Source of the DNA: Minisyncoccota bacterium
GTDB taxonomy: Bacteria > Patescibacteriota > Minisyncoccia > Phycocordibacterales > UBA2100
NCBI GenBank assembly: GCA_022842645.1
Contig: JALHPE010000001.1
Location: forward strand, 7,711-71,710
Direction: 5' to 3'
Length of the DNA stretch: 64,000 nt
Each line of letters begins with the position of its first letter. Position 1 is the first letter of the stretch. The notes under the pieces were generated by a model. It did no database searches. It saw only the letters and a program-made list of their open reading frames with translations, and was not told the DNA's origin. The translations under genes and the position numbers were made by a program. Below are positions 465 to 62,240 of this stretch, piece by piece.

Positions 465-1691
465 ATGGCAAAGCAAGTACGACCAGATGTGGAATCCTTT
501 GCGCGAATTCGTGTCGTTGGCGTTGGCGGCTCTGGTGGTAACACCATTAACCACATGGTCTCGTCGCATGTGATTGGCGTCGACTTTCTCGCAGTCAACA
601 CTGACGCACAGGATCTCGCAAAATCAAAAGCAAAACGCAAGATTCATATTGGTAGAAACCTTACACGCGGCCTCGGAACCGGCATGGATCCCGATTTGGG
701 AAAGCAAGCAGCTGAAGAGACACGCGAAGAGATCCAGGAAGCACTAAAAGGTTCTGACATGGTGTTTGTTACCTGCGGTATGGGCGGCGGCACTGGAACC
801 GGCGCAGCACCCGCTGTCGCAAAAATTGCACGTGAGCTTGGAGCCCTTACTGTCGGTGTTGTAACAAAGCCTTTTAGTTTTGAAGGCGCTCAACGCGGAC
901 GTCTTGCAGAGCAAGGTATTATGGAGCTCCGCAAATCAGTCGATGCAATCATCATCATTCCCAACGACAAACTCCTCTCCGTTGTCGCAAAAGAAACGGG
1001 CATTAAAAATGCGTTTGCGATGTGCGACGATATCCTGAAACAAGCTGTTGAGGGTATTTCAGATCTCATCACGACGACCGGTATCATCAACGTCGACTTT
1101 GCTGATGTACGTTCAATCATGCACAACGCTGGTTCCGCACTCATGGGTATCGGTATGGCAATCGGTGAGAAACGCGCAGAAACAGCCGCGCGTCTTGCCA
1201 TCAACTCCCCACTTCTTGAAGTGTCCATCAACGGCGCAAAGGGTGTACTCTTTTCTGTCGCAGGTGGTGATGATCTCTCTATGCTCGAAGTGCAAGAAGC
1301 GGCAAATGCGATTACTGAAGCTATTGACCCCGAGGCAAAGGTTATTTTTGGCGCCGTAACAGACGAAACTCTCAAGAAAGGACAAATCAAAGTTACTGTT
1401 ATCGCAACAGGATTCCCAGAAAATGTTGGCGGGCGTGTAGCATATCCGGCACAACCAATGCCTGCACGACTCGCAAAACGTGAGCCCGAAATGCCTCCAG
1501 TAAGAAAAATGGAGCAACCGACCCAAGCTCCTGCATCGACACCCATGCCAGCTCCTCAGATAATAAAAGAATCGACACCCCCCGTGAAAGATCAACAGAA
1601 ACCCCGCGAACTCGCGCCCCAACAAAAGCAGGATGTGAATGAAGAAGATGATATCTGGGGAGGCTTTCCTTCATTTCTTCGCAGGAAATAG
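465..1691 (+). CDS. ftsZ: Cell division GTPase FtsZ
   Basis: Tubulin/FtsZ signatures [14 protein letters not shown] and [10 protein letters not shown], and a C-terminal Pro/Gln-rich tail. The ORF track begins at 411; the ATG at 465 (MAKQVRPD...) gives a canonical N-terminus. Confidence 0.95.
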
Positions 1692-1771
1692 TCTGTAGAC
1701 TATAGTTTGTAGTCTGTAGTAAAATATAGAGACTTTTTGTTTACTACAAACTACAGTCTACACACTAAAAA
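1691..1771. repeat. Heptad-array palindromic element, copy 1: (NNNGTAG)x4, 25-nt spacer, (CTACNNN)x4, ending 3 nt before the trxB ATG
   Basis: Read directly: gtctgtag actatag tttgtag tctgtag, then a spacer, then ctacaaa ctacagt ctacaca ctaaaaa. The same architecture and long exact matches occur at 62150-62240 and 23488-23524. Confidence 0.6.
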
Positions 1772-1773
1772 CT

Positions 1774-2700
1774 ATGTATGATCTCGCAATTGTTGGTGGT
1801 GGCCCAGCTGGAATATCGGCGGCCGTCTACGCTGCGCGCAAGCGCCTTAAAACAGTGTTGATTACTGATGACTGGGGCGGGCAAAGCACGGTCTCCCCCG
1901 AAATTCAAAATTGGATCGGGGATCCTTCTATCTCTGGTGCTGATCTTGCAAAGAAACTTCGCGGACACGTCGAGAGTTATAAAGGCGAGTGGCTGGAAAT
2001 CGTCTCGCCCCACCGCGCACAAAGTGTTAAGGAAGTTGAAGGAGGTGTCGAAATTTCGTGCACCGATGGCTCAACGCACACTGCTCGCACACTCCTTGTC
2101 GCAAGCGGCTCAAATCGCCGTAAACTTGAGATCCCAGGTGCCAAAGAGTTTGATAACAAAGGCGTCACCTACTGCGCTTCATGTGATGGCCCTCTCTTTG
2201 CTGATATGGATGTTGCGGTAGTGGGAGGCGGAAACGCGGCATTTGAAACCGCTATGCAGCTCCTCGCATATTGCAAAAGTGTCTCGCTCTTTAATCGTTC
2301 CGATGTATTCCGCGCTGACGAGCTCACTGTCGAGAAGGTTTTGAAGCATCCAAAGATGAAAACGTTCACCAACACACAACTGGTTGCGATTGAGGGGGAA
2401 AAGTTCGTCTCTGGCCTGCGCTATAAAGACGCGAACAGTGCAGAGCAGGTACTCCCTGTTGCTGGCATCTTCGTAGAGATTGGACTCGTCCCTAACACTG
2501 CGTGGCTTGGGAGTATCGTAAAAATGAACGAATACAATCAAGTCATTGCCGACCCGTACACCCAGCGCACTTCACACTCTCGTCTCTGGGCAGCGGGAGA
2601 TTGTACCGACGGCAGATATCATCAAAACAACATCGCCGCCGGTGATGCTGTCAAAGCACTCGAAGACATTTACGCTTTTGTGCACAAAGAAAAGAATTAG
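1774..2700 (+). CDS. trxB: Thioredoxin-disulfide reductase
   Basis: FAD motif GGGPAG, redox-active CASCDG, NADPH motif GGGNAA. The 308-aa length fits low-molecular-weight TrxR. Confidence 0.85.
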   Translation: MYDLAIVGGGPAGISAAVYAARKRLKTVLITDDWGGQSTVSPEIQNWIGDPSISGADLAKKLRGHVESYKGEWLEIVSPHRAQSVKEVEGGVEISCTDGSTHTARTLLVASGSNRRKLEIPGAKEFDNKGVTYCASCDGPLFADMDVAVVGGGNAAFETAMQLLAYCKSVSLFNRSDVFRADELTVEKVLKHPKMKTFTNTQLVAIEGEKFVSGLRYKDANSAEQVLPVAGIFVEIGLVPNTAWLGSIVKMNEYNQVIADPYTQRTSHSRLWAAGDCTDGRYHQNNIAAGDAVKALEDIYAFVHKEKN

Positions 2701-3604: not shown

Positions 3605-3759
3605 GTCACAAATAATTCTTGTGCCGACGCACAAGAATTTCCGCGACCCCGACTCGGCGACCCGCGTGCTCGCGGGTACCCCGCCTCCGTCTTTCGAATC
3701 TCCCCCTCTTCCTGCAAAAATATAGTCGCCCAACACATGTGTTGGGCTCGTTATTTTTG

Positions 3760-3844
3760 CGGAGAGGGAGAGATTCGAACTCTCGAGGCCTTGCGACCTG
3801 GCGGTTTTCGAAACCGCTCGTTTCAACCACTCACGCACCTCTCC
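3760..3844 (-). tRNA. tRNA-Ser (anticodon CGA), type II with long variable arm
   Basis: Folded by hand: acceptor GGAGAGG/CCTCTCC, D-stem CGT/ACG, anticodon stem GCGGT/ACCGC with loop TTCGAAA, variable arm AGGTC-GCAA-GGCCT, T-arm GAGAG-TTCGAAT-CTCTC, discriminator G. Confidence 0.85.
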
Positions 3845-4093
3845 GTAGGCACGATACTAACAGAACATAGGCCTTTTGCACACTTCAAGTTGTTTCCGAT
3901 GGTAAATCCATTTTTCCGGGATGAGAAGTAAGCGCCTCTAGAATGGCGCGACGCAACTTCTCTGCCCCGTCTTCAGGACGGGGTAAATGTTCAAAAGATT
4001 CTTTCACCTTTTAAGCATACCACGTCCTTTAATCCGCCCCCTCCCATACCCTCTTCATAAGTGCCAAAAAGTGTTGTAGTATGCGCCGCGTAA

Positions 4094-4165
4094 GGCCTCA
4101 TCGTCTAACGGCTAGGACAGCGCCTTTTCAAGGCGTTAATCGGGGTTCGATTCCCCGTGAGGTCA
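4094..4165 (+). tRNA. tRNA-Glu (anticodon TTC)
   Basis: Acceptor GGCCTCA/TGAGGTC, anticodon stem GCGCC/GGCGT with loop TTTTCAA, T-arm CGGGG-TTCGATT-CCCCG, 72 nt. Confidence 0.85.
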
Positions 4166-5870
4166 AAGACAGAGATTTATCAACCTTGAATTGTTCAGAA
4201 AGCCTGAAAATAGGCTGTAATTTTGGTGTTCCATTAAGGATTTCGTGGTAGGTTGGTGTTTTCTCAAAAAACAACGACATTAAAGCCCTTCGAGACTGTA
4301 AATCATCAGCCTTTTCGAGTATTTCAGCAGGGTGTTCCATTACGCGCTTTGCGTAACGAATAAAGCCCTTGATTCCTTTTTCGTTTACCTCAATCGTGCC
4401 ACGCTTACTCTCCGCATCTTTGATCTGTACGTCGAGCGCTTCAATCTCTCTTTCAAGCATCTTTCTCGTAATGATGCTTTCTGCAACTTCAAACGCTTTT
4501 AGTTTCTGGGCTTGCTCTGCCTTAAGTTCGCTTACACTCCTGCTGATTGCCGATGACATTTCAACAATGTCTTTCTCTTTCGAGCGATATTTGCGTACCA
4601 ACTTCTCTTCAAGTTTCTCCAAAAAACCCTTTTCAAAGCGAAGATTATCAATGTAGTTTTTAACACACTTCTCAAGATCTGCTTTTCTAACTCTGAATCC
4701 AGAGTGTGCTCGCTTTCCGTTTTTCACTCCTCCACAATGATACGCGGGAAAATGCTTACCTGACTTTCCGCGAGGTGCACTACCCAAAAGTTCCGAGGTG
4801 CAGAATGGGCAAGTAATCACTTTCCACGGATAGTCTGGATTGTTACGTAAACGTTTGGTTTTACCCCACGGAGAATAGTTATAAAGTACCTCCACGCTCC
4901 CATCCCCATGCTCCTTAACGAAAACTTTGCCGCGATTTGCTCGATTAAAAAGATCAACCGAAACCAGTCCATTGAATTCTCGTAGTCGTACTGGTTGATG
5001 CTTTGTCCACGACTCACAAACAATGCCTGCATATTCTGTTTGCGTAATACGTCTTTGTAATTGTTTAACAGTAAGTAATTTGCCGCCCTTCTTTCCAACT
5101 ACGGTCGGATGCTCTTTATTACTCCGATCCCAGCGTCGAGTCGTTAAGGTGCGATATCCCATTGCGTTTATGGTTTTAACAATCTCATTGTCATCAACGC
5201 CAGCCGCGCGCATCTCAAATATTTTTACCCAGTAATGTGATCGCTCTGGATCAGTCGCGCGAATCACACGGTCTTTTCCATCATAGAAAAATCGCTTATT
5301 AATCATTCCGTCTGGCGCACGACGAGTTGCCCATCCTTCTCTGGCATAGCGAATTTGTGCACCAATCATTCTCGTTAAAATCTGTCTTACTTCTTGCTCA
5401 CCATTATAGGCTGTTATCATTTCAGCCGATTCACTTGGGTAGTATTCACTCCACTTATATTTAACCCCAAGGTGTTCAAGTGTGTTACGTTCAGGCTGAA
5501 TTATTCCATATACGTCGCACATTTGAACACCTAATTCAGCAAGTTCGCGCTTCATCCTCTCGTAAACCACATAACCTGCCCTTGTTGCACGATCAATACA
5601 TTTGATAATGTATTTTTTAATGGGCTTATCAGTGTGTATTCGACTACGGATGTACATTTTTACTTCCTCAAAATCTTGTCTTTCTTTAGTGGTTCCGGAA
5701 TGCGGTTTCTTGAAAACCTCTGCAACGATCCAACCACTACGTTCGGCAAACTGTCTTCCAAGTTTTTCCTGATCATCCAAACTGTCGCCCTTAAGTTGGG
5801 AGGGGTCGCTTACACGGCAATCAATTACGCAGTATGTAGGTCTTTCAGTCATACTCCTACATTTTAACAA
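4128..5870 (-). CDS. Large serine recombinase (phage-type integrase)
   Basis: N-terminal resolvase catalytic domain (YCVIDCRVSDPSQ...DQ with the catalytic Ser, ...IDRATRAG), Cys-rich zinc-ribbon (CPFCTSELLG...HFPAYHCGG) and a C-terminal coiled-coil. The 3' end overlaps tRNA-Glu. Confidence 0.85.
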   Translation of the reverse strand: MLKCRSMTERPTYCVIDCRVSDPSQLKGDSLDDQEKLGRQFAERSGWIVAEVFKKPHSGTTKERQDFEEVKMYIRSRIHTDKPIKKYIIKCIDRATRAGYVVYERMKRELAELGVQMCDVYGIIQPERNTLEHLGVKYKWSEYYPSESAEMITAYNGEQEVRQILTRMIGAQIRYAREGWATRRAPDGMINKRFFYDGKDRVIRATDPERSHYWVKIFEMRAAGVDDNEIVKTINAMGYRTLTTRRWDRSNKEHPTVVGKKGGKLLTVKQLQRRITQTEYAGIVCESWTKHQPVRLREFNGLVSVDLFNRANRGKVFVKEHGDGSVEVLYNYSPWGKTKRLRNNPDYPWKVITCPFCTSELLGSAPRGKSGKHFPAYHCGGVKNGKRAHSGFRVRKADLEKCVKNYIDNLRFEKGFLEKLEEKLVRKYRSKEKDIVEMSSAISRSVSELKAEQAQKLKAFEVAESIITRKMLEREIEALDVQIKDAESKRGTIEVNEKGIKGFIRYAKRVMEHPAEILEKADDLQSRRALMSLFFEKTPTYHEILNGTPKLQPIFRLSEQFKVDKSLSLTSRGIEPRLTP

Positions 5871-6113
5871 CTTTTCTTCTTGTAGAAACTATATTCTTCT
5901 CACGAATCCACATATCTAACAGCGTATCTGCAAGATGATCTAACAATATATCCACATTAACATTTAAGTTGTTATCTGACGGATTAGATTTTGTAGCGGT
6001 CAACTGTTGGAGGAAGTTATCTTGACCCGAACTCATAAAGTTCAGGTTCGTGTGTTATGACTCGTTGCGCAAACGAATGTACAAGTTTCTAAAATTCAGT
6101 AAAAAATAAAAGT

Positions 6114-6169
6114 CGGCTATATAGCCGGATAATTTTTTTACGTTTTTTATGAAATCGGCTATATAGCCG
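6114..6169. repeat. Two copies of the perfect 14-bp palindrome cggctatatagccg (6114-6127 and 6156-6169), each followed by a T-run
   Basis: Read directly. They lie in the integrase upstream region of the element. Either tandem terminators or operator sites. Confidence 0.5.
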
Positions 6170-6484
6170 ACTTTTAACTTATCCCCAACATATGGACTTA
6201 TTCATGACAACACAAAGCGGAACCTTAACCGTCAAGAGTTGTTGTGTTGAGCGTACGAAGCAAGTAAACTGTCTACGTTCGCCCTCAAAGCGAACATTTC
6301 AAAACAAAGACCTAAACCCTCGCTTCGGCGGTGGCATGGTCTAAAAGTCGGATGGAGCGTAGGAACCCCGTCATGTGGTTGCTTCATCCGCCGTATCGGG
6401 AAACCGGTGCGTTCGCGTAAGCGAAGACCCGTGGCGGGTTTTGTGTTTTCTAAAATTCCGCCTTTACAAGAAAAGTGAACACAT

Positions 6485-6613
6485 ATGGACTACGATGATC
6501 TGACAAACGAAGTGGAAGAACTTAAAGCGCAAATCTATAAACTGCGTAGTGAATTAAACTTCTTTGCCACATGTTTTGGATTTGTAGTGCTTATGATCCT
6601 GATATGGAAATAA
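6485..6613 (+). CDS. Small hypothetical protein (43 aa) with a C-terminal transmembrane helix
   Basis: ATG..TAA ORF (MDYDDLTNEVEELKAQIYKLRSELNFFATCFGFVVLMILIWK) below the ORF-track cutoff and inside the mobile element. No homology support. Confidence 0.25.
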   Translation: MDYDDLTNEVEELKAQIYKLRSELNFFATCFGFVVLMILIWK

Positions 6614-6623
6614 CTAAACTCCT

Positions 6624-6866
6624 ATGCAATATCTAACCCTCACAATACTCGCAGTCGCTTTCTTTGCAGGGCAAGCGTTTTTAACTCTCACTCTCCAACA
6701 AAAAGAAAGTAACGAGGAGTTTGCAAAACACGTTCAAGAAAAGATCTTTGATGATTGTTTCGACTACTACGCGGCAACCTCACGAGAAAGAGGTATTGAT
6801 AAAACCACAATTCAGACATGCGTAGACAAGACGAGCGATTGGATGAAGTCTATAAACAATCTGTAA
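6624..6866 (+). CDS. Hypothetical small secreted protein (80 aa, N-terminal signal-like helix)
   Basis: ORF-track ORF; hydrophobic N-terminus LTLTILAVAFFAGQAF. Confidence 0.4.
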   Translation: MQYLTLTILAVAFFAGQAFLTLTLQQKESNEEFAKHVQEKIFDDCFDYYAATSRERGIDKTTIQTCVDKTSDWMKSINNL

Positions 6867-6889
6867 ATTTATTCCGCGCGGAATGAGAA

Positions 6890-7276
6890 TTAAGCAAACT
6901 CGGCTTTATCCTCCTCGGCAGGTTCCAACATTTTTGACTGCAACATATCAAGCCGCTCCTGTGCGAGAGTGAGTTCAAACCCTCGCGCATTCCTCCCAAA
7001 TTCGTCTGGACAGCGTTTTTCCAAGTATCGCATGGCAAGATGCGGGTCTCGCTCTAAATTGTCTACAACGGTCTTTTTTGCCTTTAAAATGGGGTTCAGT
7101 TTCCACCTCGCTTTTTGCTCCACAAAGTCTGGGGTTGCCGTCTGATAGTTATACAGCGTTTGTGGTGCAATTTTGGCTGAATTACAGGCTTCTTCGTCTG
7201 TTGCCCCTATCTGAAAAGCGTCTTCGAGTTTTTGGAGTACGCGAGGAGTGATTTTTTTGGGTCTGCCGAGTGTCAT
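6890..7276 (-). CDS. Phage-like HTH DNA-binding protein (terminase-small-subunit-like N-terminus)
   Basis: N-terminus MTLGRPKKITPRVLQKLEDAFQIGATDEEAC resembles the GRPxKYTPE HTH of phage TerS/Nu1-like proteins. Acidic C-terminus. Confidence 0.4.
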   Translation of the reverse strand: MTLGRPKKITPRVLQKLEDAFQIGATDEEACNSAKIAPQTLYNYQTATPDFVEQKARWKLNPILKAKKTVVDNLERDPHLAMRYLEKRCPDEFGRNARGFELTLAQERLDMLQSKMLEPAEEDKAEFA

Positions 7277-7311
7277 ATCACTATTTTACCGGAAATAAAC
7301 ACGCTGATACA

Positions 7312-8598
7312 ATGCTGTCCAATCTACCCACCATGTCTGGATTCCTGAAAACACGAGAAGTCTTTGAAGAAACGTATCGCGTTGACGATTTGTTGGATTT
7401 TTCGAGTGAAATCAATCGTCTTGATTCGGTAATTCAGCAAGCACCTTACTCGGCGTTGGTTGGATACGTGGGACGTTTTGGCTCTGGAAAGAGCACGGCT
7501 ATTTACCAATTGCGTAAACAGTATGAGCAAGCAAAAAAATCTAAGTGGTTTGAGTTTGATGCATGGAAATATCCCGAACGTCGTGATCTGTGGGAGGGCT
7601 TTGTACTCGATATCGCAGATCAAATGGGGAGCAGAAAGAGAGTGAAGAAGCAGATTGACGGCGATACGAAAACATCGAAAACAGTTGGTGCGATCTCTGA
7701 AATCGCACAAGGGCTTGCCGCTTTCACTGGTCTTTCCTACCTCGTCAGCAAATTTGCACACCTATTCGATAAACAACCCATTGAGCGCGTTTTTGAGTTG
7801 CAAGAGATCCTTGTTGCGATGTTCGGCGCAGTAAAAGAAAAAGACATTTTCATTGTGGTCGAGGATATAGATCGATCAGGTGATGCGGGGCAATATTTCC
7901 TGGAAACACTGCGGCAATTTATTAAGAATAACCTCGCTGAAAAGCGCATCGTTATTCTCGTGCCTATCGGCTCAGAAATTTACGACAAAGAAGACGATCT
8001 TCACGACTCCTTGCAAAAAGTACTCGATTACCAGGTGCATTTTGAACCTCGGTCGGTGAAATACTCAAAGTTCCTGGATTATTTTGATGAAAGTACGTTT
8101 CCTGCAACTCACACCGTGCAAGCGAACGTGCAGGATAAATCTCTTTGGCGAGAGCATATTGAAGACTGGTTTGCTCTTGCGGCTCGTAATGGTCTAAACA
8201 TACGAAAGATTAAATCCGCTGTTCGTGAAGCAAACGCCGCCTTTATTGATCTCCGAGCAAAAGAATTTAAACCCGATCCTCGAATTGTACTCGCAATCAC
8301 TCTGCTTAATTATGTTTACACAGAAGGAAAGAAACGATGGGTAACGCGACTTGAAACCAAGCATGATATTACGAGTAATTGTCCTATTTATAATTATCTG
8401 CAAGTTGTCGCGCGTAACCAGCGACTGTCAGAATACCCAGGGCACTGGAGACCAGGAGCAACGCATTTTGTTGAGGATCGAGAGTTAATCCTTCCGGCGT
8501 ATGTGACTGATTCTAGAGCGCCGAACGGAGAGCCGACAGGAAGATTTTGGCTCTCGGATTTTTACTTAATTCCCTTTGGTAGAAATACCCAAGGATAG
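7312..8598 (+). CDS. KAP-family P-loop NTPase
   Basis: Walker A GRFGSGKST followed by the KAP-diagnostic FEFDAWKYPERRDLWEGF, and Walker B IVVEDIDR. The ORF track starts at a GTG at 7270, overlapping the upstream gene; the ATG at 7312 is preferred. Confidence 0.75.
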   Translation: MLSNLPTMSGFLKTREVFEETYRVDDLLDFSSEINRLDSVIQQAPYSALVGYVGRFGSGKSTAIYQLRKQYEQAKKSKWFEFDAWKYPERRDLWEGFVLDIADQMGSRKRVKKQIDGDTKTSKTVGAISEIAQGLAAFTGLSYLVSKFAHLFDKQPIERVFELQEILVAMFGAVKEKDIFIVVEDIDRSGDAGQYFLETLRQFIKNNLAEKRIVILVPIGSEIYDKEDDLHDSLQKVLDYQVHFEPRSVKYSKFLDYFDESTFPATHTVQANVQDKSLWREHIEDWFALAARNGLNIRKIKSAVREANAAFIDLRAKEFKPDPRIVLAITLLNYVYTEGKKRWVTRLETKHDITSNCPIYNYLQVVARNQRLSEYPGHWRPGATHFVEDRELILPAYVTDSRAPNGEPTGRFWLSDFYLIPFGRNTQG

Positions 8599-12532: not shown

Positions 12533-13723
12533 ATGCGCATCCTTGCCATAGAAACCAGCTGCGACGAAACGGCTGTCTGCATCATCGAAGCAGAAGGAGA
12601 GGGGTTAGGTGTTAGGTTCCAGGTGTTAGGGAATGCCCTTCTTTCGCAAGCAGTCCACGCACAGTATGGCGGAGTTTTTCCGAGCCTAGCCCGGAGAGAA
12701 CATGAACGGAATCTTGTTCCCCTCTTCCAGAAAGCACTGGAGGAAGCGAAGTTGTTGAAGTCGGCACATAATCAAGGCGACACATCGTTGATAGAGAAGG
12801 TTTTACATCGCGAAAACGATCTGCGCCCGCAACTTGTCGCATTTTTGAAAGAGCATGGAAAACCCGATATTGATTGCATTGCGGTGACGCATGGCCCGGG
12901 GCTTGAACCAGCTCTTTGGGTTGGCGTTAATTTTGCACGCGCGCTTGCACATGCGTGGAATCTACCCGTTGTTCCGGTGAATCATATGGAAGGACATCTC
13001 ATCTTGTCGGCTTTAGCCGGACAAGATGAGAAGTATCAAGTATCAAGTATCAAGTATCAAACAAAACACAAAGTCCAATTTCCACTTCTCGCACTTCTTA
13101 TTTCTGGAGGGCACACGGAACTTGTTCTTGCGCGCGAATGGATGAAATATGAACTTCTGGGACAAACGCGTGACGATGCTGTGGGCGAGGCGTTTGATAA
13201 GGTAGCGCGCCTGCTTGATCTTCCCTACCCTGGCGGACCGGAAATAGATAAACTCGCCAAACGCGCCCGTGATGTGGGACTTACGAAGTCCCACATTGAA
13301 TTGCCGCGACCGATGATTGATACAGATGATTATGATTTCTCTTTCTCCGGGCTCAAAACCGCTGTTCGCCGCCTCGTTGAATCGAAACAACCACTGTCAG
13401 AACAAACGAAGATGGAGATTGCGCGGGAGTTCGAGGAGGCGTGTGCGGATGTGCTTGTGGCAAAGACACTCCGTGCCATTGAGGAGTACAATATCGAATC
13501 GCTGGTCGTTGGCGGCGGCGTTTCGGCAAATGAGTACATTCGCGAGCGCCTTGCGGAGAGTATTAAGAGCTATGGCTTGAGTACGAAACTGCTTATTCCC
13601 CCACGCGAGCTTGCAACCGATAATGCACTTATGATCGCACTCGCAGGCTATTTCCGTGCCCTTAACAAGGAATGCGCTGAACCAGAAACGATTCGAGCGA
13701 ATGGGAATTTGAAGTTGGTATAA
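12533..13723 (+). CDS. tsaD: tRNA N6-adenosine threonylcarbamoyltransferase TsaD (Kae1/Gcp)
   Basis: N-terminus MRILAIETSCDETAVCI, metal-binding HMEGH, and LISGGHTELV. Contains two short in-frame insertions built from simple repeats (see findings). Confidence 0.9.
   Translation: MRILAIETSCDETAVCIIEAEGEGLGVRFQVLGNALLSQAVHAQYGGVFPSLARREHERNLVPLFQKALEEAKLLKSAHNQGDTSLIEKVLHRENDLRPQLVAFLKEHGKPDIDCIAVTHGPGLEPALWVGVNFARALAHAWNLPVVPVNHMEGHLILSALAGQDEKYQVSSIKYQTKHKVQFPLLALLISGGHTELVLAREWMKYELLGQTRDDAVGEAFDKVARLLDLPYPGGPEIDKLAKRARDVGLTKSHIELPRPMIDTDDYDFSFSGLKTAVRRLVESKQPLSEQTKMEIAREFEEACADVLVAKTLRAIEEYNIESLVVGGGVSANEYIRERLAESIKSYGLSTKLLIPPRELATDNALMIALAGYFRALNKECAEPETIRANGNLKLV
12603..12632 (+). repeat. 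GGTGTTAGG-type repeat (ggttaggtgttaggttccaggtgttagg) inside the tsaD N-terminal coding region; related copy at 51461-51490
   Basis: The two loci share a 14-nt exact core taggtgttaggttc. Confidence 0.55.
13031..13058 (+). repeat. Perfect tandem (AAGTATC)x4 inside the tsaD coding sequence
   Basis: Read directly: aagtatcaagtatcaagtatcaagtatc. The 7-nt unit is not a multiple of 3. It encodes KYQVSSIKYQ, an insertion relative to canonical TsaD before the ALLISGGHT motif. Confidence 0.8.
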
Positions 13724-21916: not shown

Positions 21917-23713
21917 TTACTCATCTCCTCCGCGCACCACCTTCAGAAACACCTCGTGAGGGATATCAACCTTCCCGCGTGCAAGCATTTTCTTCTTGCC
22001 TTTCTTTTGCTTTTCAAGAAGCTTCATTTTACGTGTGATGTCGCCGCCGTAGAGGTACCCGGTTACGTCTTTGCGCATCGCTGACTTCCTGCGCGATGCG
22101 ACGATCTTTCCATCGCATTTTGCTTGAATTTTGAGCTCGAAGAGCTGTTTCGGAAGAAGCTTTTCGAGCCGCTCAACAAGCGCTTCGGCTTCGTGGCCAA
22201 CGCGTCGTTTTGAGACGATGCGCGCAAATGCAGGCACGAGCTCGTCGGCAACAAGAATGTCCAGTCGAACCACATCCGCACTCCTCAGTCCCAGCAACTC
22301 ATATGAGAGCGATGCAAAGCCTGAAGAGACGCTTTTTAGGCGATCAAAGAAGCCTCGCATAAGCTCGCGCAGCGGCATCTCAGCTGCGAGCTTTACCTTG
22401 CCGTCGGGAAGTGTTTCTGTCTCCCCCACTACCGCTTCATGATCGAATAGAATCTGCGAAATACCGCCGAGATAACTCGGGGGTGTAATGATATCAATTG
22501 CCGCCCATGGCTCGCGCACTGATTTAAGCGTGCCGTCATCAGGAAAACGTGCAGGATTATAAATTTCCTCCACACGCCCGTCTTGGAGTGTAATCTCGTA
22601 CACAGTTGTGGGACTTGTGACCACAAGCGGTAAATCAAATTCGCGCTTCAACCGCTCGATAACAATCTCGAGATGAAGCATCCCGAGAAATCCACACCGA
22701 AATCCTTTCCCCATGACACCAGAGGACTCTTCTTCGTACGAAAGTGAAGAATCGGAGAGGCGCAGACGCTCAAGCGCCTGGCGGAGCTGTACTAAATCGT
22801 CTTGCGACTCTGGGTACACAGACGCCCAAATAACAGGCGCTGGAGCCCTGTAACCGCCGAGCGGAGCGCCACTCATGCGCGCAGAGAGCACTGTGTCGCC
22901 CACAGAGGCAATACCCGGCTTTTTAATGCCAGTCACGATGTAGCCGATTTCCCCTTCCCTAAGCTCATCGCGCGGGGTTTCGTCGGGCGTGAGGACTCCC
23001 ACTTCAAGTGCCGTAAACGAGGCGTTTGCTGCTGCAAGCTTGAGTGAATCTCCCTTTGAAACGCGCCCGCCAAAGAGTCGACAATAAATGATGACGCCGC
23101 GATGGTCGGAATATGAAAAGTCATAAACGAGTGCCTGCATTTTCTCTCCCGAGCTTCGGGGCGGAGGAATACGCTCAACAACCGCGTTCAAGAGTTCTGT
23201 AACACCAACACCTGTCTTACCTGAAGTAAGAATCACGTCGCGCTCGTCACATCCAAGCAGCATAGTGAGTTCTGTCTTCACGTCATCAACACGTGCGTGT
23301 GGTGCGTCTATTTTATTTACTACGGGGATGATCACCCTCTTCAATTCGCGCGCCGTCGAGAGAACCGAAAGTGTCTGCGCCTCAACCCCCTGTGTGGCGT
23401 CCACGAGGAGCACAACCCCTTCAACGGCCGAGAGTGCACGTGAGACTTCGTAGGCAAAATCAACGTGGCCGGGAGTATCGATCAGATTTAGTGTGTAGTT
23501 TGTAGACTGTAGTTTGTAGTTCATCCGGACGGGAGCCATTTTAATGGTGATGCCACGCTCGCGCTCGAGATCCATACGATCCAAGACCTGTTCTTTCATG
23601 GCTCGCTTTTCGATCGTGCCGGTGAGCTCGAGCATGCGATCGGCCAGGGTGGATTTCCCGTGGTCAATGTGCGCGATTATCGAAAAGTTTCTAATGTGTG
23701 AAGACATATTCAT
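21917..23713 (-). CDS. lepA: Elongation factor 4 (LepA); likely true start at the second ATG (23707)
   Basis: IRNFSIIAHIDHGKST G1 motif, DTPGHVDF, and the LepA-specific C-terminal domain ending KKGKKKML..; 598 aa. Confidence 0.95.
   Translation of the reverse strand: MNMSSHIRNFSIIAHIDHGKSTLADRMLELTGTIEKRAMKEQVLDRMDLERERGITIKMAPVRMNYKLQSTNYTLNLIDTPGHVDFAYEVSRALSAVEGVVLLVDATQGVEAQTLSVLSTARELKRVIIPVVNKIDAPHARVDDVKTELTMLLGCDERDVILTSGKTGVGVTELLNAVVERIPPPRSSGEKMQALVYDFSYSDHRGVIIYCRLFGGRVSKGDSLKLAAANASFTALEVGVLTPDETPRDELREGEIGYIVTGIKKPGIASVGDTVLSARMSGAPLGGYRAPAPVIWASVYPESQDDLVQLRQALERLRLSDSSLSYEEESSGVMGKGFRCGFLGMLHLEIVIERLKREFDLPLVVTSPTTVYEITLQDGRVEEIYNPARFPDDGTLKSVREPWAAIDIITPPSYLGGISQILFDHEAVVGETETLPDGKVKLAAEMPLRELMRGFFDRLKSVSSGFASLSYELLGLRSADVVRLDILVADELVPAFARIVSKRRVGHEAEALVERLEKLLPKQLFELKIQAKCDGKIVASRRKSAMRKDVTGYLYGGDITRKMKLLEKQKKGKKKMLARGKVDIPHEVFLKVVRGGDE
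23488..23524 (-). repeat. Half-copy of the heptad-array element inside the lepA coding sequence (encodes MNYKLQSTNYTLN)
   Basis: In the lepA sense strand, ctacaaa ctacagt ctacaaa ctacaca ctaaat. Its first 19 nt match the right arm of copy 1 (1744-1762) exactly. In plus orientation, 24 nt (agtgtgtagtttgtagactgtagt) match the left arm of copy 3 (62156-62179) exactly. Confidence 0.6.
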
Positions 23714-36701: not shown

Positions 36702-39700
36702 TTATCTCAACCCGCCCGGAGGAACCGCGCACCCGGCAGGATTTGGTTCGGCTTCGCAGAGGCATTGGATGAACGAATTGATTGGTTGTTCTGGCTCGCA
36801 GGTGCGCACGTCCTCTGGCGTAGGGTTTCCACTTTGCCCGCTGGACCCGCCCCCTCCTCCATTTCCACTGCCCGAACCGCTTCCGCCTGTGCCTACGGGC
36901 GTGCTCTGACTTCGCGCGATTTCTTCCGGCGTGAATATACGCTCCGGATCAGAATCGTCGCCACGCACACGCACCAGTGTCTCATGCAGAAGTTTATCGG
37001 TTGTATTCTTCGTGTTGCACACCAAGCCAAAACGAGTCGATTCGGTGATTGTTGGCGAACTGATAGATCCGTTCTGAGGGCCACGATGGAAGACTTTGAA
37101 GTCTGCGCTTATAACAGCGCACGTTGAGCTTCCGACATCGGTCCCGACACTCGACCACGAAAGCGTTGTTGTGGATCCAGAAGTTATGAACGAGGGATTA
37201 GCAACAATTGCACCCACGATAACCACCGGCTGCGGAGTGGATTGCGGCTCAGTCGGTGGTCGAGGAGGCTCTTCCTCCCCTCCTCCACCAAAATCAAAGA
37301 ACGCAAATAAGCCCTGGAGGAGTCCTTGCAAAACACTCATCCCACCGCGAGAGAATCCGCCCGAGCCACTGCCAGAAGAAGGAGGACTGCCGGGCACATC
37401 TCCAGAAGCAGAATCTTCAGGGGTGGAATCCCCCGGCGCACGACCATTTGTTTTTCCACTAGAACCAGAATCTGCATTGGCGCCAGGAGCACCACCTTGT
37501 CCGCCACGATCGCCGTTTGCACCCCCATCTGCAACAGATCCTACGCCGCCTCCGTCTCCTCCTGTTGCATCTTGTTGTGCCTTCTCTTCTTCTCCACTTT
37601 CACCTGGCGTAGCGGGTGCAACTCCTTGTGGCTCACCACTTTGCGATTCAGAGGGGGGCGCATCTCCAGGAGGCGTAGAAGTAAGAACACCACTATTCTG
37701 ATTTTGAATGGTCGTGTCGGGAGTAGATGGCGCTTCTGACGTAGCAGGAGTTTCTAAAGGCTCTTCTCCCCCAGGCATAATCGCATACACCCCCGCGCCA
37801 CCTAATAACATACTGACCGCCGACAAACATGAACGGAAGCCTGTACACATATCCCACGCTCTGCGTGCAACAGACGTTTGATTAGAGGGTGTATTTTGGG
37901 GCGATGCCGTGTTTACCCCTGCTCCCGAGCCGCGTGCTTGCGCCTCAGCCGTAGCCCCCCTTGCGTAATCATCAAGCGCACCTCGTGCAAGCGCGAGCAC
38001 TTGTGGATCATCTAGCTTGGCACCGTTTGCAAGTGCCCCATCAACGTCATCGAGCTTGCGTGCAGCATTGTCATACAACCCGGAAGCTGAAGTACCCTTC
38101 GTTATTACAGCCTTTTCGATCGCTACATCGCGAAGGAATTTAATCTCTGCAATCTGTGCTTCGCGCGCAGCTTGTGCGCGCGACCACTCATCAAGGCGTT
38201 TTATAAAATCATCGTTAATTGGAGCCACATCCCTACTAACTGGAGCTACAGCCTCAGGAACCACAGCGGCTGGAGGAGTGTCTGGAATGGGCGGTGGGGT
38301 TGGGGTGGTATCGCGCGGAATCGGAGGCGGCGTTTGCGGGAGCGGAGGTGGAACCGCATCAACAATCGGCGCACGTGGAAGATTTGCATTAGGCAGTGGT
38401 GACGGCGTTGTGGCTGGTACGTCTGGAAGTGCATCTCGAGCCAGGGCACCTGTGGGTAAAACGTCTCTTGTAAACCACCCACGTAACGATTGAGCTGCGT
38501 CTCCGATCGATGATCGAAGAGATGTCAAAGAGAAACCTTCCGAAACAGGCACAAGCGCATCCGCTCGATCCGGTACAAATGCACCAGCTTCTCCTAACGA
38601 ACCTTTTATTTCTTTTTCCTTTTGCCCCGGACGGAACGTGAATGGCGAAGGGGGAATGGACGGTGGAGTAGTCACTTGTGTATTTGGCGGTGGCGCAATG
38701 TCTGCAGCTACGACAGGCGCAGCAGATGGCGGGCGTGGCGTATCGCGGACAAGAGCAACAAAACTCGGTGACTCCGGAAGAGTTGGTGCAGGTGTGCCAG
38801 GCGAGCGTGGAGTTGTGGGCACAGGCACTGCCGGTGCCTCAGCCACAGCAGGAGTGTTGTCGGCAACAGTAATTACAGAAGGAGTTGGTATATCCTCCAC
38901 ATCAACTGCTCGAACAACTACATCAAAAGAACTATTCGCGATCACGGTTGGAGCAGAGATAGTATCAAAAATCGCGAGGGCAGTTACAACTTCTCCATGA
39001 GATAACGATTGGACGGTCGGGATATCTACAGCGGAGACTGTACGAACTTCCGGAATAGTAGAAACTTTTGCTAATAATGTATTTATTTCGATGACCGCAT
39101 TCTCAACTTTTGCTCCCTGAGAAGCGATTCTTGCTTTGAATTGAGCTTGGTTCGCGGCTTTGCTAAAAATATTACGTGCATAAAAGTTATCAACCTCCTG
39201 AGCCAAACTGCTCACATTTGTGCGCGCTATTTTCGCCTGCTCCAATAATCCTTCTCGAACATCACTGGGCACGAGAGGATTTTTGGCGACATTCTCTGCT
39301 GCGTCCGCTAATCTACCGACACCTGAACGCAAAGAGGGAGATGTGTTTTTTAATATCTCAAGGCCATCTAAACCTCCGATTTGCCTTGCTCGCAATAGTT
39401 CTTCCTGCATTACCTTTAAACGTCTAATACTCGGGGGTATAGCAACTTGTGCTTTTGCCAAATCTGCTTCTGCGGCAGCCACTAATTCTTTTCGAGGATT
39501 CGGTGCTATTGGCGGGTTTGTCTCAGAAACCAACATTGAAGTAGGAGAAGGGGGCGGGAGACTCTCTTCTGCTGCTCGGCGTGCACGTGCGGCAATCTCT
39601 GACAAATCGGCCAAAACAGTCGCTTGATCGGGGGAGGAACCGATGCCGGCGCGCCACACTTCGTCCATGGCAGCAAGTTGTTTACGCAAAATTTCCGTCT

Positions 39701-51460: not shown

Positions 51461-51490
51461 AGGTTTTAGGTTCTAGGTGTTAGGTTCTAG
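51461..51490. repeat. GGTGTTAGG-type repeat (aggttttaggttctaggtgttaggttctag) in the groES-groEL spacer
   Basis: Shares a 14-nt exact core with 12603-12632. Confidence 0.55.
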
Positions 51491-53930: not shown

Positions 53931-53949
53931 CCACTTTATTAATTATTAA

Positions 53950-62014: not shown

Positions 62015-62120
62015 AATACATCAAGAGTGCGGTGAAGGTTCTGGCCTTTCGATCCGCCCCCAACCCCTCTTCCGAGGACGGTGGGAAACCAGTCCTTCGG
62101 GCAGATGCACTATTTAGATG
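62015..62120 (+). promoter_or_regulatory. SAM-I (S-box) riboswitch-like leader of metK
   Basis: CATC-AAGAG-TGCGGTGAAGG-CTGGCC...CCCCCAACC...GGTGGGAAACC...GCAGATG resembles the S-box consensus (AAGAG, GGnGGAGGGA, CTGGCCC, GCAACC, GGTGCnAAnnCC, P1 closing GATG). Followed by a terminator hairpin. Canonical position upstream of metK. Confidence 0.5.
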
Positions 62121-62146
62121 TCTCCCGTATGGGAGCTTTTTATTTA
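62121..62146 (+). terminator. Expression-platform terminator (tctcccgtatgggag plus TTTTTATTT)
   Basis: Hairpin plus U-run directly after the riboswitch-like element. Confidence 0.5.
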
Positions 62147-62149
62147 CCA

Positions 62150-62240
62150 GTCTGTAGTGTGTAGTTTGTAGACTGTAGTCGAGAAATTCCTCGCAACGCA
62201 CATACTACAAACTACAATCTACTTTCTACAAACTATTCAT
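62150..62240. repeat. Heptad-array palindromic element, copy 3 (gtctgtag tgtgtag tttgtag actgtag, 25-nt spacer, ctacaaa ctacaat ctacttt ctacaaa ctattcat) ending at the metK ATG
   Basis: Read directly; 24-nt exact match to the lepA copy. Confidence 0.6.

What the first reader, a model, noticed from the sequence alone, without database searches (positions are those of the whole stretch)
13031..13058. A frame-breaking tandem heptanucleotide (AAGTATC)x4 inside essential tsaD
Four perfect copies of a 7-nt unit sit within an in-frame insertion (EKYQVSSIKYQTKHKVQ) that canonical TsaD lacks, just before the ALLISGGHT motif. Gain or loss of one unit would frameshift an essential tRNA-modification enzyme. 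This is the architecture of a contingency (phase-variable) locus but in a housekeeping gene. Alternatively, it marks a recent simple-sequence insertion tolerated in a surface loop.
Basis: seen in the sequence. Interest (0 to 1): 0.55.

Follow-up and report, generated by a model that had tools for sequence, protein, structure and literature searches.

The report
Conserved heptamer repeat inside tsaD
A perfect four-copy 7-base repeat really does sit in frame inside the essential tRNA-modification gene tsaD of a Kaiserbacteria-like (CPR) bacterium, but it is an old, stably kept repeat next to a conserved hairpin in a floppy surface loop, one of many ~31-base heptamer arrays in such genomes, and not an on/off switch.

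Summary
Window 13031-13060 is (AAGTATC)x4.3, in frame, and encodes K167-Q176 of TsaD.

The contingency-locus reading is not supported:
- Eight independent sample assemblies are 100% identical.
- No predicted slipped product exists among 15 billion proteins.
- At least eight related species (62-76% identical TsaD) carry the same ~30-nt array at the same site, at the nucleotide level: 28/31 codons identical, against ~42% elsewhere in the gene.

The "tolerated loop insertion" fallback is half right. The peptide is the only internal low-confidence segment of a confident TsaD model, but the insert is not recent.

New findings:
1. The array starts at the 3' foot of a 14-bp hairpin (12998-13030). Its 5' arm is native TsaD codons, and the stem co-varies across relatives.
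2. Other CPR lineages have different heptamers or palindromes at the same loop.
3. The window has 11 period-7 arrays against 0.9 expected, both inside and between housekeeping genes.
4. AAGTATC arrays lie in frame in LigA, MnmA, DnaX, GatB, Fmt and an aaRS on other CPR-like contigs.
5. Array lengths peak at 31-32 nt.

Best reading: a self-maintaining heptanucleotide simple-sequence repeat, tolerated in a permissive loop. It is a new CPR variant of known heptamer-repeat systems.

The parts
12533..13723 (+). tsaD (tRNA N6-adenosine threonylcarbamoyltransferase), 396 aa, host gene
   Evidence: PDB phmmer E 5e-74. Pfam TsaD on the identical Logan contigs. AF2 model pLDDT 87.1. Foldseek top hits are TsaD/YgjD.
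12998..13030 (+). Hairpin: 5' arm CTCATCTTGTCGGC (12998-13011, native codons LILSA), loop TTTA, 3' arm GCCgGACAAGATGAG (13016-13030, insert-specific codons AGQDE). Its 3' foot abuts the array.
   Evidence: RNA fold z = -4.7, with 0 of 200 shuffles folding as well. Present in all 8 array-bearing relatives with compensatory changes: core 10 bp are 92% paired, 4 pairs have double changes, 0 of 500 shuffles reach the observed score. Protein-level coupling is Leu-Gln 12, Ile/Val/Met-Asn 7, and 0 of the other combinations, Fisher 2e-5.
13031..13060 (+). (AAGTATC)x4.3 heptanucleotide array, encoding K167-Q176 (KYQVSSIKYQ)
   Evidence: Orthologous arrays in relatives. Codon identity 28/31 against 39-45% in the rest of the gene. 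Codon usage gives 2e-4 for this spelling. Residues 166-178 are the only internal segment with pLDDT below 50.
12998..13078 (+). Hypervariable TsaD loop codons (L156-Q182) between HMEGH and FPLLALLISGGHT. This is an insertion hotspot across CPR.
   Evidence: Loop length is 12-15 aa at baseline and up to 71 aa with heptamer arrays or palindromes in other lineages.
12600..12630 (+). Second period-7 array in tsaD (AGGKKYT type), encoding GLGVRFQVLG in an N-terminal beta-hairpin. It causes no length change relative to relatives.
   Evidence: TRF. Shares the 15-mer TTAGGTGTTAGGTTC with the groES-groEL array, and the one in-frame TAG reads CAG. No significant RNA structure.
23489..23521 (-). TAGTNTG-type array inside lepA (21917-23713, minus strand), translated in the stop-free orientation as NYKLQSTNYTL
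   Evidence: Same loop length as relative L093, 4 aa longer than L092.
1689..1774 (+). Inverted pair of TAGTNTG arrays filling the ftsZ-trxB spacer. The 5' arm starts at the ftsZ stop codon TAG and the 3' arm ends at the trxB ATG.
   Evidence: RNA fold z = -4.4. The orthologous spacer of L093 holds the same unit family.
51461..51490 (-). AGGTKYT-type array occupying nearly the whole groES-groEL spacer. It is G-poor and unstructured on the mRNA strand.
62149..62235 (+). Inverted pair of TAGTNTG arrays ending 5 nt before the metK start codon
   Evidence: RNA fold z = -4.0.

Best explanation
The (AAGTATC)x4.3 tract is a long-lived heptanucleotide simple-sequence repeat embedded in frame in a permissive, disordered surface loop of TsaD.

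It belongs to a genome-wide class, apparently common across CPR bacteria, of short period-7 arrays with a modal length of 31-32 nt. These arrays lie between genes, often running right up to start codons. In the stop-free orientation they also lie inside housekeeping genes.

In tsaD the array starts at the 3' foot of a 14-bp hairpin. The hairpin's 5' arm is the native codons that follow the HMEGH metal-binding motif.

Shown: the array, its frame, its position in the loop, its presence at the orthologous site in at least 8 related species, its nucleotide-level conservation, and the co-varying hairpin.

Inferred: the hairpin and the array are created, and kept matched, by DNA-level template-switch or slipped-strand events. 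Quasi-palindrome correction would keep the two arms complementary. Slippage or conversion among units would keep the repeat homogeneous, with only changes of three units (21 nt) surviving in a coding region. The encoded peptide would be a tolerated passenger. It does not act as a phase switch. One- or two-unit slips are simply lethal or deleterious frameshifts that selection removes.
For: Period-7 arrays number 11 in the window against 0.9 in dinucleotide-preserving shuffles.

The same array occupies the same site in P0002, P0006, P0031, P0032, P0016, P0051 and P0094. All have about 4.1-4.4 units with 2-4 point changes. P0010 keeps the hairpin plus a 1.4-unit remnant, which equals a loss of exactly 3 units.

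Codon identity is 28/31 in the array against 39-45% elsewhere. Codon usage does not explain this (2e-4).

The hairpin shows covariation and Leu-Gln / Ile-Asn coupling. The stems are almost entirely perfect Watson-Crick pairs, which is what DNA-level template switching predicts.

Independent lineages have other heptamers plus a hairpin at the same site: L035 with AGACAGT and L022 with AAAGTKR. Others have in-frame palindromes there: L018, L014, L016 and P0079.

The array-encoded peptide is the only internal low-confidence segment in the model.

AAGTATC arrays occur at 120 or more metagenomic places. None of the 80 examined is in tsaD. Twenty-seven lie inside ORFs of at least 200 aa, including LigA, MnmA, DnaX, GatB, Fmt and a class-I aaRS. 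One host contig is from Levybacteria.

Array lengths peak at 31-32 nt.

The closest published parallels show the same orientation rule and the same proximity to start codons (PMC4679880).
Against: Nucleotide-level conservation and stem covariation over 25-38% protein divergence are also what selection on a functional RNA or DNA element would produce. The mutational model is inferred, not shown.

A pure slippage equilibrium does not obviously predict a sharp 31-32-nt mode.

The insert is patchily distributed on a rough neighbour-joining tree, in at least 10 groups. This requires either many losses, recurrent gain, or recombination.

Hairpins abut only about 2% of the array flanks examined, so the tsaD architecture is not the general rule.

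The complete genome was not available, so its repair and exonuclease gene content could not be checked.
Confidence: 0.55

Rival explanations
1. Functional cis-element. The hairpin plus a ~31-nt single-stranded heptamer platform would be an RNA (or ssDNA) signal recognised for its periodicity rather than its sequence. For example, OB-fold proteins (cold-shock-domain or S1 type) might bind one heptamer each. The element would tune translation, pausing or mRNA stability of housekeeping genes.
For: The array DNA is conserved beyond protein need. The stem shows compensatory changes. Three lineages have the same architecture with different sequences. Array length is uniform at 31-32 nt. Intergenic arrays run up to the start codons of trxB, groEL and metK, where no obvious Shine-Dalgarno sequence was seen. 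The same idea, together with CspB binding to heptamer repeats, is discussed for TAACTGA repeats (PMC4679880).
Against: Many different unit sequences coexist in one genome. Close relatives do well without the insert, for example P0004, P0005 and P0013. G.U pairs are nearly absent from the stems, which is unusual for RNA helices under selection. The other coding arrays, in lepA and at the tsaD N-terminus, show no structure. There are no binding or expression data.
Confidence: 0.25
2. Miniature mobile element. Pre-formed ~31-nt heptamer arrays (and small palindromes) would be inserted again and again by some enzyme, with a preference for hairpin feet. The tsaD copies in different lineages would then be independent insertions.
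For: Near-identical AAGTATC arrays occur at 120 or more unrelated loci and in at least two CPR groups. The distribution on the TsaD tree is patchy. Array size is uniform. Array start phase differs between relatives and between the two LigA hosts. A heptamer-plus-palindrome composite in L023 resembles, from memory, the cyanobacterial SDR elements embedded in heptamer tracts (Elhai 2008).
Against: No transposase, HUH enzyme or reverse transcriptase was found among the window ORFs scanned. There is only one AAGTATC array in 64 kb. Insert-bearing loops share flanks and a stem built from host codons, which fits descent better than repeated hits. Some arrays replace native sequence without changing length, as in lepA, the tsaD N-terminus and Levybacteria DnaX.
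Confidence: 0.12
3. Contingency (phase-variable) locus. Slippage of the 7-nt tract would switch TsaD on and off.
For: The unit is not a multiple of 3. A change of +/-1 or +/-2 units truncates the protein before SGGHT. The tract is perfect in this strain.
Against: The tract has only 4.3 units. The consensus is identical in 8 sample assemblies. No slipped product is on record. The length is conserved across species, and the arrays in relatives are interrupted. The host is a housekeeping gene. The same repeat lies in many other essential genes. Known heptanucleotide phase variation uses 13-24 promoter repeats that vary between isolates (PMC8262952).
Confidence: 0.03
4. Selected peptide. KYQVSSIKYQ would be a functional loop of Kaiserbacteria TsaD, for example a partner or tRNA contact, and the DNA repeat would be incidental.
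For: The peptide motif recurs in many homologues.
Against: Synonymous sites are conserved too. The loop is predicted to be disordered. About half of the homologues, including close ones, lack it. The same peptide occurs in unrelated enzymes.
Confidence: 0.04
5. Assembly or sequencing artefact.
For: Short repeats can be mis-assembled.
Against: Eight independent assemblies are 100.000% identical over up to 14.6 kb. Orthologous arrays occur in unrelated data sets. The reading frame is intact.
Confidence: 0.01

Closest known systems
TAACTGA heptamer direct repeats of marine Beggiatoaceae, some Cyanobacteria and Bacteroidetes (MacGregor 2015, PMC4679880), and heptanucleotide 'long simple sequence repeats' (Mrazek 2007, as cited there)
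   Same: Tandem 7-nt units, mostly 2-6 copies, at many sites per genome. Most are intergenic and end a few nucleotides before start codons that lack a Shine-Dalgarno sequence. One orientation has stops in all three frames and can only overlap ORF ends. The other orientation is found inside ORFs as a 7-aa periodic peptide. Their function is unknown, and DNA-polymerase slippage and RNA-binding proteins have been proposed.
   Different: Here many unit sequences coexist in each genome instead of one favoured heptamer. The arrays sit in the middle of essential enzymes rather than at protein ends or in hypothetical proteins. They are conserved at orthologous sites across species. The length mode is sharp at 31-32 nt. 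In tsaD there is an adjacent co-varying hairpin. The hosts are CPR bacteria.
Cyanobacterial STRR heptamers and the small dispersed repeats embedded in heptamer tracts (Mazel 1990, Vioque 1997, Elhai 2008; recalled from memory, papers not held)
   Same: Heptanucleotide tandem arrays are dispersed through the genome. They occur inside functional genes, for example the RNase P RNA gene. Small hairpin elements are associated with heptamer tracts, as in the L023 tsaD loop.
   Different: A different phylum, and no shared unit sequences were seen. Whether the CPR arrays are mobile is untested.
Rickettsia palindromic elements (Ogata 2000; from memory)
   Same: Selfish repeats inserted in frame into housekeeping proteins at surface positions that tolerate them. 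The small in-frame palindromes in the TsaD loop of L018, L014, L016 and P0079 resemble this.
   Different: RPEs are palindromes of about 100-150 bp, not 30-nt tandem heptamers, and they belong to defined sequence families within one genus.
Phase-variable heptanucleotide SSR of the H. influenzae hmw1A/hmw2A promoters (PMC8262952)
   Same: A 7-bp tandem repeat that can slip.
   Different: It lies in a promoter, has 13-24 copies, varies between isolates, and controls a surface adhesin. Here the tract has 4.3 copies, is fixed, and lies in a housekeeping ORF.
Quasi-palindrome template-switch and tandem-repeat slippage mutagenesis (Ripley; Lovett laboratory; from memory)
   Same: A mutational route that makes imperfect inverted repeats perfect and that expands, contracts or homogenises tandem repeats. 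This would mimic covariation and concerted evolution.
   Different: It is known as a laboratory mutational mechanism in E. coli. It has not been shown to build conserved structures in natural genes.
Tandem repeats of Borg elements that create disordered regions in proteins (PMC9879509, seen)
   Same: Perfect nucleotide tandem repeats inside ORFs that add disordered peptide.
   Different: Borg coding repeats have units divisible by 3, are recent and fast-evolving. Here the unit is 7 nt and the array is old and of constant length.

Membership tests
Contingency / phase-variable SSR locus | SSR whose unit is not a multiple of 3, lying in an ORF or promoter so that slippage changes expression | tested here: met
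   A 7-nt unit in frame. A change of +/-1 or +/-2 units truncates the protein at 201-208 aa.
Contingency / phase-variable SSR locus | Tract long enough to be hypermutable | tested here: not met
   4.3 units here, against 13-24 for the hmw1A heptamer tract. The arrays in relatives are interrupted by point changes.
Contingency / phase-variable SSR locus | Copy number differs among closely related strains or samples | tested here: not met
   Eight assemblies are identical. The 90% cluster has a single member. None of the six predicted variant products is on record. Relatives keep about 4.1-4.4 units.
Contingency / phase-variable SSR locus | Within-population heterogeneity in reads | not testable with these tools
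Contingency / phase-variable SSR locus | Controls a dispensable, usually surface or host-interaction function | tested here: not met
   The host is TsaD. The same array is found in LigA, MnmA, DnaX, GatB, Fmt and an aaRS elsewhere.
Heptanucleotide dispersed SSR class (LSSR / STRR / TAACTGA-like) | Tandem direct repeats of a 7-nt unit, a few copies each | tested here: met
Heptanucleotide dispersed SSR class (LSSR / STRR / TAACTGA-like) | Many arrays per genome, with period 7 over-represented against other periods | tested here: met
   11 observed against 0.9 expected in the window. Period 7 gives 287 of the TRF rows in CPR-like loci, against 32 for period 6 and 61 for period 8.
Heptanucleotide dispersed SSR class (LSSR / STRR / TAACTGA-like) | Stop-containing orientation excluded from ORF interiors, and intergenic arrays abut start codons | tested here: met
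   TAG-type arrays are translated only as the reverse complement (lepA) or sit at ORF ends (ftsZ stop). Arrays end 0-5 nt from the trxB, groEL and metK start codons. ORF-embedded AAGTATC arrays are in the stop-free orientation.
Heptanucleotide dispersed SSR class (LSSR / STRR / TAACTGA-like) | One favoured unit sequence per genome (as for TAACTGA or STRR1-3) | tested here: not met
   The window has at least three unit families: TAGTNTG, AGGTKYT and AAGTATC. L118 has more than 10.
In-frame selfish palindromic elements (RPE-like) | Repeated element found in frame in housekeeping proteins at tolerated surface sites | tested here: met
In-frame selfish palindromic elements (RPE-like) | The element itself is a palindrome of about 100-150 bp from a defined sequence family | tested here: not met
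   The element is a 30-nt tandem array. The adjacent stem is built partly from host codons.
REP/REPIN-RAYT or IS200/IS605-type hairpin elements | Cognate HUH (Y1) transposase encoded in the genome | tested here: inconclusive
   None was found among 10 large window ORFs, but only 64 kb of the genome was available.
TsaD/Kae1/Qri7 family (host gene) | HxxxH metal-binding motif, SGGHT motif, ASKHA fold, Pfam PF00814 | tested here: met

The most novel reading that the evidence does not exclude
The unit 'hairpin foot plus ~31-nt heptamer array' would be a previously unrecognised cis-element of CPR bacteria. It would be either a periodicity-read binding platform, for example for multi-OB-fold proteins, that acts on the mRNAs or ssDNA of core housekeeping genes, or the footprint of a new kind of very small insertion machinery that targets hairpin feet. 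Either would explain its nucleotide-level conservation, its fixed size, and its independent reappearance at the same TsaD site in at least three lineages.
Probability: 0.25. Interest if true: 0.8.

Novelty: new variant of a known kind. Interest (0 to 1): 0.55.

Why it matters
The finding removes a tempting but wrong idea, namely phase variation of an essential tRNA-modification enzyme. In its place it points to a broader and apparently undescribed property of CPR/Patescibacteria genomes.

Short heptanucleotide arrays of nearly fixed length, together with small palindromes, are threaded through core enzymes (TsaD, LepA, DnaX, LigA, MnmA, GatB, Fmt and an aaRS) and through the spacers in front of start codons. 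They persist at orthologous sites with their DNA sequence, not only their peptide, conserved.

This bears on three questions:
- Why CPR proteins carry so many lineage-specific inserts.
- How replication and repair work in these reduced genomes.
- Whether heptamer repeats, long unexplained in cyanobacteria and Beggiatoaceae, have a general function.

The tsaD case offers a compact test object, because it pairs a co-varying stem with an array inside a well-understood enzyme.

Tried and rejected
- A genome-contig scan with the single protein found nothing. The rescan with the alignment saturated on generic TsaD motifs and returned few close relatives. It did yield useful distant CPR loci.
- My first strict period scan saw only the perfect array. 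TRF against shuffles was needed to show the period-7 excess.
- My first tsaD-context flag for the metagenome hits was uninformative. A tblastn check showed that the arrays are truly outside tsaD.
- The hypothesis that every heptamer array abuts a hairpin was rejected. Only about 2% of flanks do, although this is enriched over controls.
- The hypothesis that the array acts as an internal promoter or terminator was rejected. There is no plus-strand promoter-like site at the array, and the only good terminator follows the tsaD stop codon.
- The hypothesis that the lepA, tsaD N-terminal or groES-groEL arrays form RNA structure was rejected (z = -0.3, +1.1 and +0.3).
- Codon bias as the explanation for the array's conservation was rejected.
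- I assumed at first that the 12600-12630 array and the DnaX array were length insertions. They are not.
- Literature searches for heptamer repeats in CPR/Patescibacteria found nothing. Elhai 2008 and Vioque 1997 are not held in the library.
- One Pfam call failed because of a bad reference, and one fold call exceeded the length limit.
Full report
**1. Observation.**
Window 13031-13060 reads AAGTATC four times, followed by AA. It lies in frame in ORF 12533-13723(+). Three lines of evidence identify this ORF as TsaD:
- PDB phmmer gives E 5e-74 against Aquifex, Salmonella and E. coli TsaD.
- Pfam TsaD is recorded on the identical public contigs.
- An AlphaFold model (mean pLDDT 87.1, pTM 0.85) superposes on solved TsaD/YgjD structures (TM 0.87 normalised to the target).

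The tract is far beyond chance. No comparable run appears at any period in shuffles. The 14-mer has 3 matches against 0.23 expected.

The array encodes K167-Q176 (KYQVSSIKYQ). Solved TsaDs lack 11-16 residues at this position. The nearest insert-free relatives have a 15-aa loop where this protein has 27 aa.

**2. The organism and the population.**
Homologues with names are Candidatus Kaiserbacteria, which belong to CPR/Patescibacteria.

The identical protein is encoded on 11 contigs. Eight Logan assemblies from different runs (SRR28154519-31) are 100.000% identical to the window over 3.6-14.6 kb. This is one clonal population with one consensus copy number.

The 90%-identity cluster has a single member. 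None of the six products predicted for -3 to +3 units exists among about 15 billion proteins, while the wild type does. Read-level variation could not be examined.

**3. The tract is old, not recent.**
Among 120 homologues, about half have a 15-aa baseline loop (for example IVLSAMEEGKLAKFK). Dozens carry variants of the array-encoded peptide: KYQVSSDKYQ, KYQVSGIRYQ, KYQVAGSKYQ, IKYHVSSIK, KSQVSSIK, NNQVSSIK.

For eight relatives I obtained the DNA. All still have a recognisable AAGTATC array of 4.1-4.4 units with 2-4 point changes. P0031, at 65% protein identity, reads AAGTATC AAGTAGC AGGTAGC AAGTATC AA.

P0010 keeps only AAGTAAC AAG. That is what an in-frame loss of exactly three units would leave.

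At residues that are identical between the window and each relative, codons are identical 39-45% of the time across the gene, but 28 of 31 times inside the array. This genome's codon usage gives only 2e-4 for spelling KYQVSSI with these codons. GTA is a minor Val codon, used 16% of the time.

The DNA is therefore conserved or continually homogenised, and not just the peptide. On a neighbour-joining tree built with the loop masked, the insert is scattered in at least 10 groups among baseline loops. This implies repeated loss, recurrent gain, or recombination, and I could not decide among these.

**4. A hairpin sits at the array's 5' edge.**
Directly upstream lies CTCATCTTGTCGGC-TTTA-GCCgGACAAGATGAG (12998-13030). 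The local RNA fold has z = -4.7.

The 5' arm is the native codons LILSA that follow the HMEGH metal-binding motif. The 3' arm encodes the insert-specific AGQDE. The array begins at the stem's 3' foot.

All eight array-bearing relatives have this stem, with different sequences. Examples are ATCGTCATTTCCGC/GCGGAAATGACGAT in P0031, TCCTGTCCGC/GCGGACAGGA in P0016 and TCATTTCCA/TGGAAATGA in P0094. The insert-free P0005 and P0013 lack it.

On an alignment of the eight, the 10-bp core is 92% paired and four of its pairs show changes on both sides. No shuffle out of 500 reaches the observed covariation, and the slid registers collapse.

The pairing predicts Leu(TTG) with Gln(CAA), and Ile(ATT) with Asn(AAT). 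Among the 120 proteins the counts are Leu-Gln 12, Ile/Val/Met-Asn 7, Leu-Asn 0 and Ile-Gln 0 (Fisher 2e-5, not corrected for phylogeny).

The stems are almost all perfect Watson-Crick pairs with very few G.U pairs. This leans toward a DNA-level process rather than selection on an RNA helix.

**5. The same site in other CPR lineages.**
In TsaD genes from distant CPR genomes (38-55% identity), the same loop holds other small repeats in frame:
- L021 has (CTAWAAC)x4.3.
- L035 has (AGACAGT)x5, preceded by a perfect 14-bp stem.
- L022 has a stem followed by an AAAGTKR array.
- L034 has an ATTTCYC array.
- L023 has heptamers flanking a GC-rich palindrome.
- L018, L014, L016 and P0079 have perfect in-frame palindromes.

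Stems of at least 8 bp right after the His codon occur in 9 of 28 genes with long loops, against 1 of 48 with short loops.

**6. It is one of many.**
TRF finds 11 period-7 rows in the window, against 0.9 in shuffles. The main arrays are these:
- A second array lies in tsaD at 12600-12630. It shares a 15-mer with the groES-groEL array, its single in-frame TAG reads CAG, and it causes no length change relative to relatives.
- One lies in lepA at 23489-23521. It is translated from the stop-free strand as NYKLQSTNYTL and has the same length as the loop of L093.
- An inverted pair fills the ftsZ-trxB spacer from stop codon to start codon (1689-1774). It is conserved as a unit family in L093 and folds with z = -4.4.
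- One fills the groES-groEL spacer (51461-51490).
- An inverted pair ends 5 nt before the metK start (62149-62235, z = -4.0).

A metagenome scan for AAGTATC-type arrays found at least 120 places. None of the 80 fetched is in the tsaD loop. Twenty-seven lie inside ORFs of at least 200 aa. Hosts confirmed by Pfam are LigA, MnmA, a class-I aaRS, Fmt, DnaX and GatB.

The host contigs carry about 3.2 further period-7 arrays per 10 kb. The contig richest in them is from Levybacteria. In its DnaX the array occupies a constant-length segment, and near-perfect versions recur in 16 of 120 homologues.

Lengths of non-seeded period-7 arrays peak sharply at 31-32 nt.

**7. Where the peptide sits.**
In the model, residues 166-178 are the only internal stretch with pLDDT below 50. 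They lie in a coil between helix 151-162 and strand 185-190. The site is permissive.

**8. Mechanism.**
Shown:
- A real, in-frame heptamer array lies in a disordered loop.
- It is conserved at the nucleotide level at an orthologous site.
- It is attached to a co-varying stem.
- It belongs to a dispersed class of ~31-nt heptamer arrays.

Inferred, as the best reading (confidence 0.55): template-switch correction of the quasi-palindrome, together with slippage or conversion among units, creates the structure and keeps it matched. Selection allows only changes of three units in coding DNA. The peptide is a passenger.

Rivals:
- A functional periodicity-read cis-element (0.25).
- A tiny mobile element that targets hairpin feet (0.12).
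- A selected peptide (0.04).
- A phase-variable switch (0.03).
- An artefact (0.01).

**9. Comparison with known systems.**
The closest described systems are the TAACTGA heptamer repeats of Beggiatoaceae, Cyanobacteria and Bacteroidetes, and heptanucleotide long SSRs generally (PMC4679880). These show the same copy range, the same orientation rule, the same proximity to start codons, and the same occasional in-ORF copies.

From memory, further parallels are the cyanobacterial STRR and SDR elements and the Rickettsia palindromic elements.

The differences here are these:
- Many units coexist in each genome.
- Arrays sit inside the cores of essential enzymes.
- Orthologous arrays are conserved at the DNA level.
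- Array length is nearly fixed.
- The tsaD copy has a hairpin attached.
- The hosts are CPR bacteria.

A genuine heptanucleotide phase-variable tract (the hmw1A promoter) has 13-24 variable copies (PMC8262952). I found no paper describing heptamer arrays in CPR, but the library is incomplete.

**10. Verdict.**
The phase-variation reading is not supported. The tolerated-loop reading is supported, except for the claim that the insert is recent. What is actually present is a new CPR variant of the heptanucleotide-repeat phenomenon, with an unexpectedly conserved stem-plus-array inside tsaD. Interest is 0.55.

Noticed in passing
window 12600-12630: A second period-7 array lies inside tsaD (GGGGTT AGGTGTT AGGTTCC AGGTGTT AGGG, encoding GLGVRFQVLG). 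It shares the 15-mer TTAGGTGTTAGGTTC with the groES-groEL spacer array. The one position that would be an in-frame TAG reads CAG. There is no length difference from Kaiserbacteria relatives, so it looks like overwriting rather than insertion.
   Followed up: partly
window 23489-23521 (lepA, 21917-23713, minus strand): A TAGTNTG-type array encodes NYKLQSTNYTL in the LepA G-domain hairpin. It has the same length as the loop of relative L093 (SYGYKGQDYVL) and is 4 aa longer than that of L092.
   Followed up: partly
window 1689-1774: An inverted pair of heptamer arrays fills the ftsZ-trxB spacer. The 5' arm begins at the ftsZ stop codon TAG and the 3' arm ends at ACT-ATG of trxB. It forms a strong hairpin (z = -4.4). 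The orthologous spacer in L093 (5302-5363) has the same unit family. This could be a stop-start coupling structure.
   Followed up: partly
window 51461-51490: A heptamer array occupies nearly all of the 34-nt groES-groEL spacer. On the mRNA strand it is G-poor and unstructured, and no Shine-Dalgarno-like sequence was seen before the groEL ATG.
   Followed up: partly
window 62110-62240: A terminator-like hairpin (CTCCCGTATGGGAGCTTTTT) is followed by an inverted pair of heptamer arrays that ends 5 nt before the metK start codon. What is transcribed upstream of it is unknown.
   Followed up: no
window 12755-12865 (TsaD residues ~75-111): An insert of about 37 aa relative to all solved TsaDs lies between the first helix and the next strand. 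It is present in all Kaiserbacteria homologues and is partly helical in the model.
   Followed up: no
L218 (P0079) tsaD loop; L018 tsaD loop: A second insert family occupies the same TsaD loop. It is a ~30-nt in-frame palindrome (CATTCTAACGTTTTG/CAAAATGTTAGAATG, peptide HSNVLQNVRM). It recurs in several Kaiserbacteria-like homologues and resembles CATTTTAGCTTTTTG/CAAAAAGCTAAAATG in a distant Paceibacterota genome.
   Followed up: partly
L118 7061-7097 and DnaX homologues P0121-P0240: In Levybacteria DnaX, a perfect (AAGTATC)x5.3 array encodes KYQVSSIKYQVS in a constant-length segment of domain III. Sixteen of 120 homologues keep near-perfect versions, and others read KYQISNIKNQIS or KYQIRQLADQIS.
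   Followed up: partly
L122, L155 (metagenome contigs): Other heptamer-derived peptides recur within and between proteins. NGKWKMENGK, from an AAATGGA array, appears in both a class-I aaRS and MnmA. SRITYHVS appears twice in one MnmA. GatB of L139 carries SPRNDS/SARNDD-type inserts.
   Followed up: no
window 3759-8598: A large serine recombinase (4128-5870, minus strand; Resolvase domain, weak hit) and a KAP-family NTPase (7270-8598) lie next to tRNA-Ser and tRNA-Glu, with a LOOT RNA at 6309-6425. This may be an integrated element.
   Followed up: no
window 36702-46565 (minus strand): A single ORF of 3287 aa. It was not analysed.
   Followed up: no
window 53936-53957: (TTATTAA)x3.1 lies between the SBP_bac_5 gene (52230-53930) and RNase J (53950-55830). 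It is a short AT-rich period-7 array in a 19-nt spacer.
   Followed up: no
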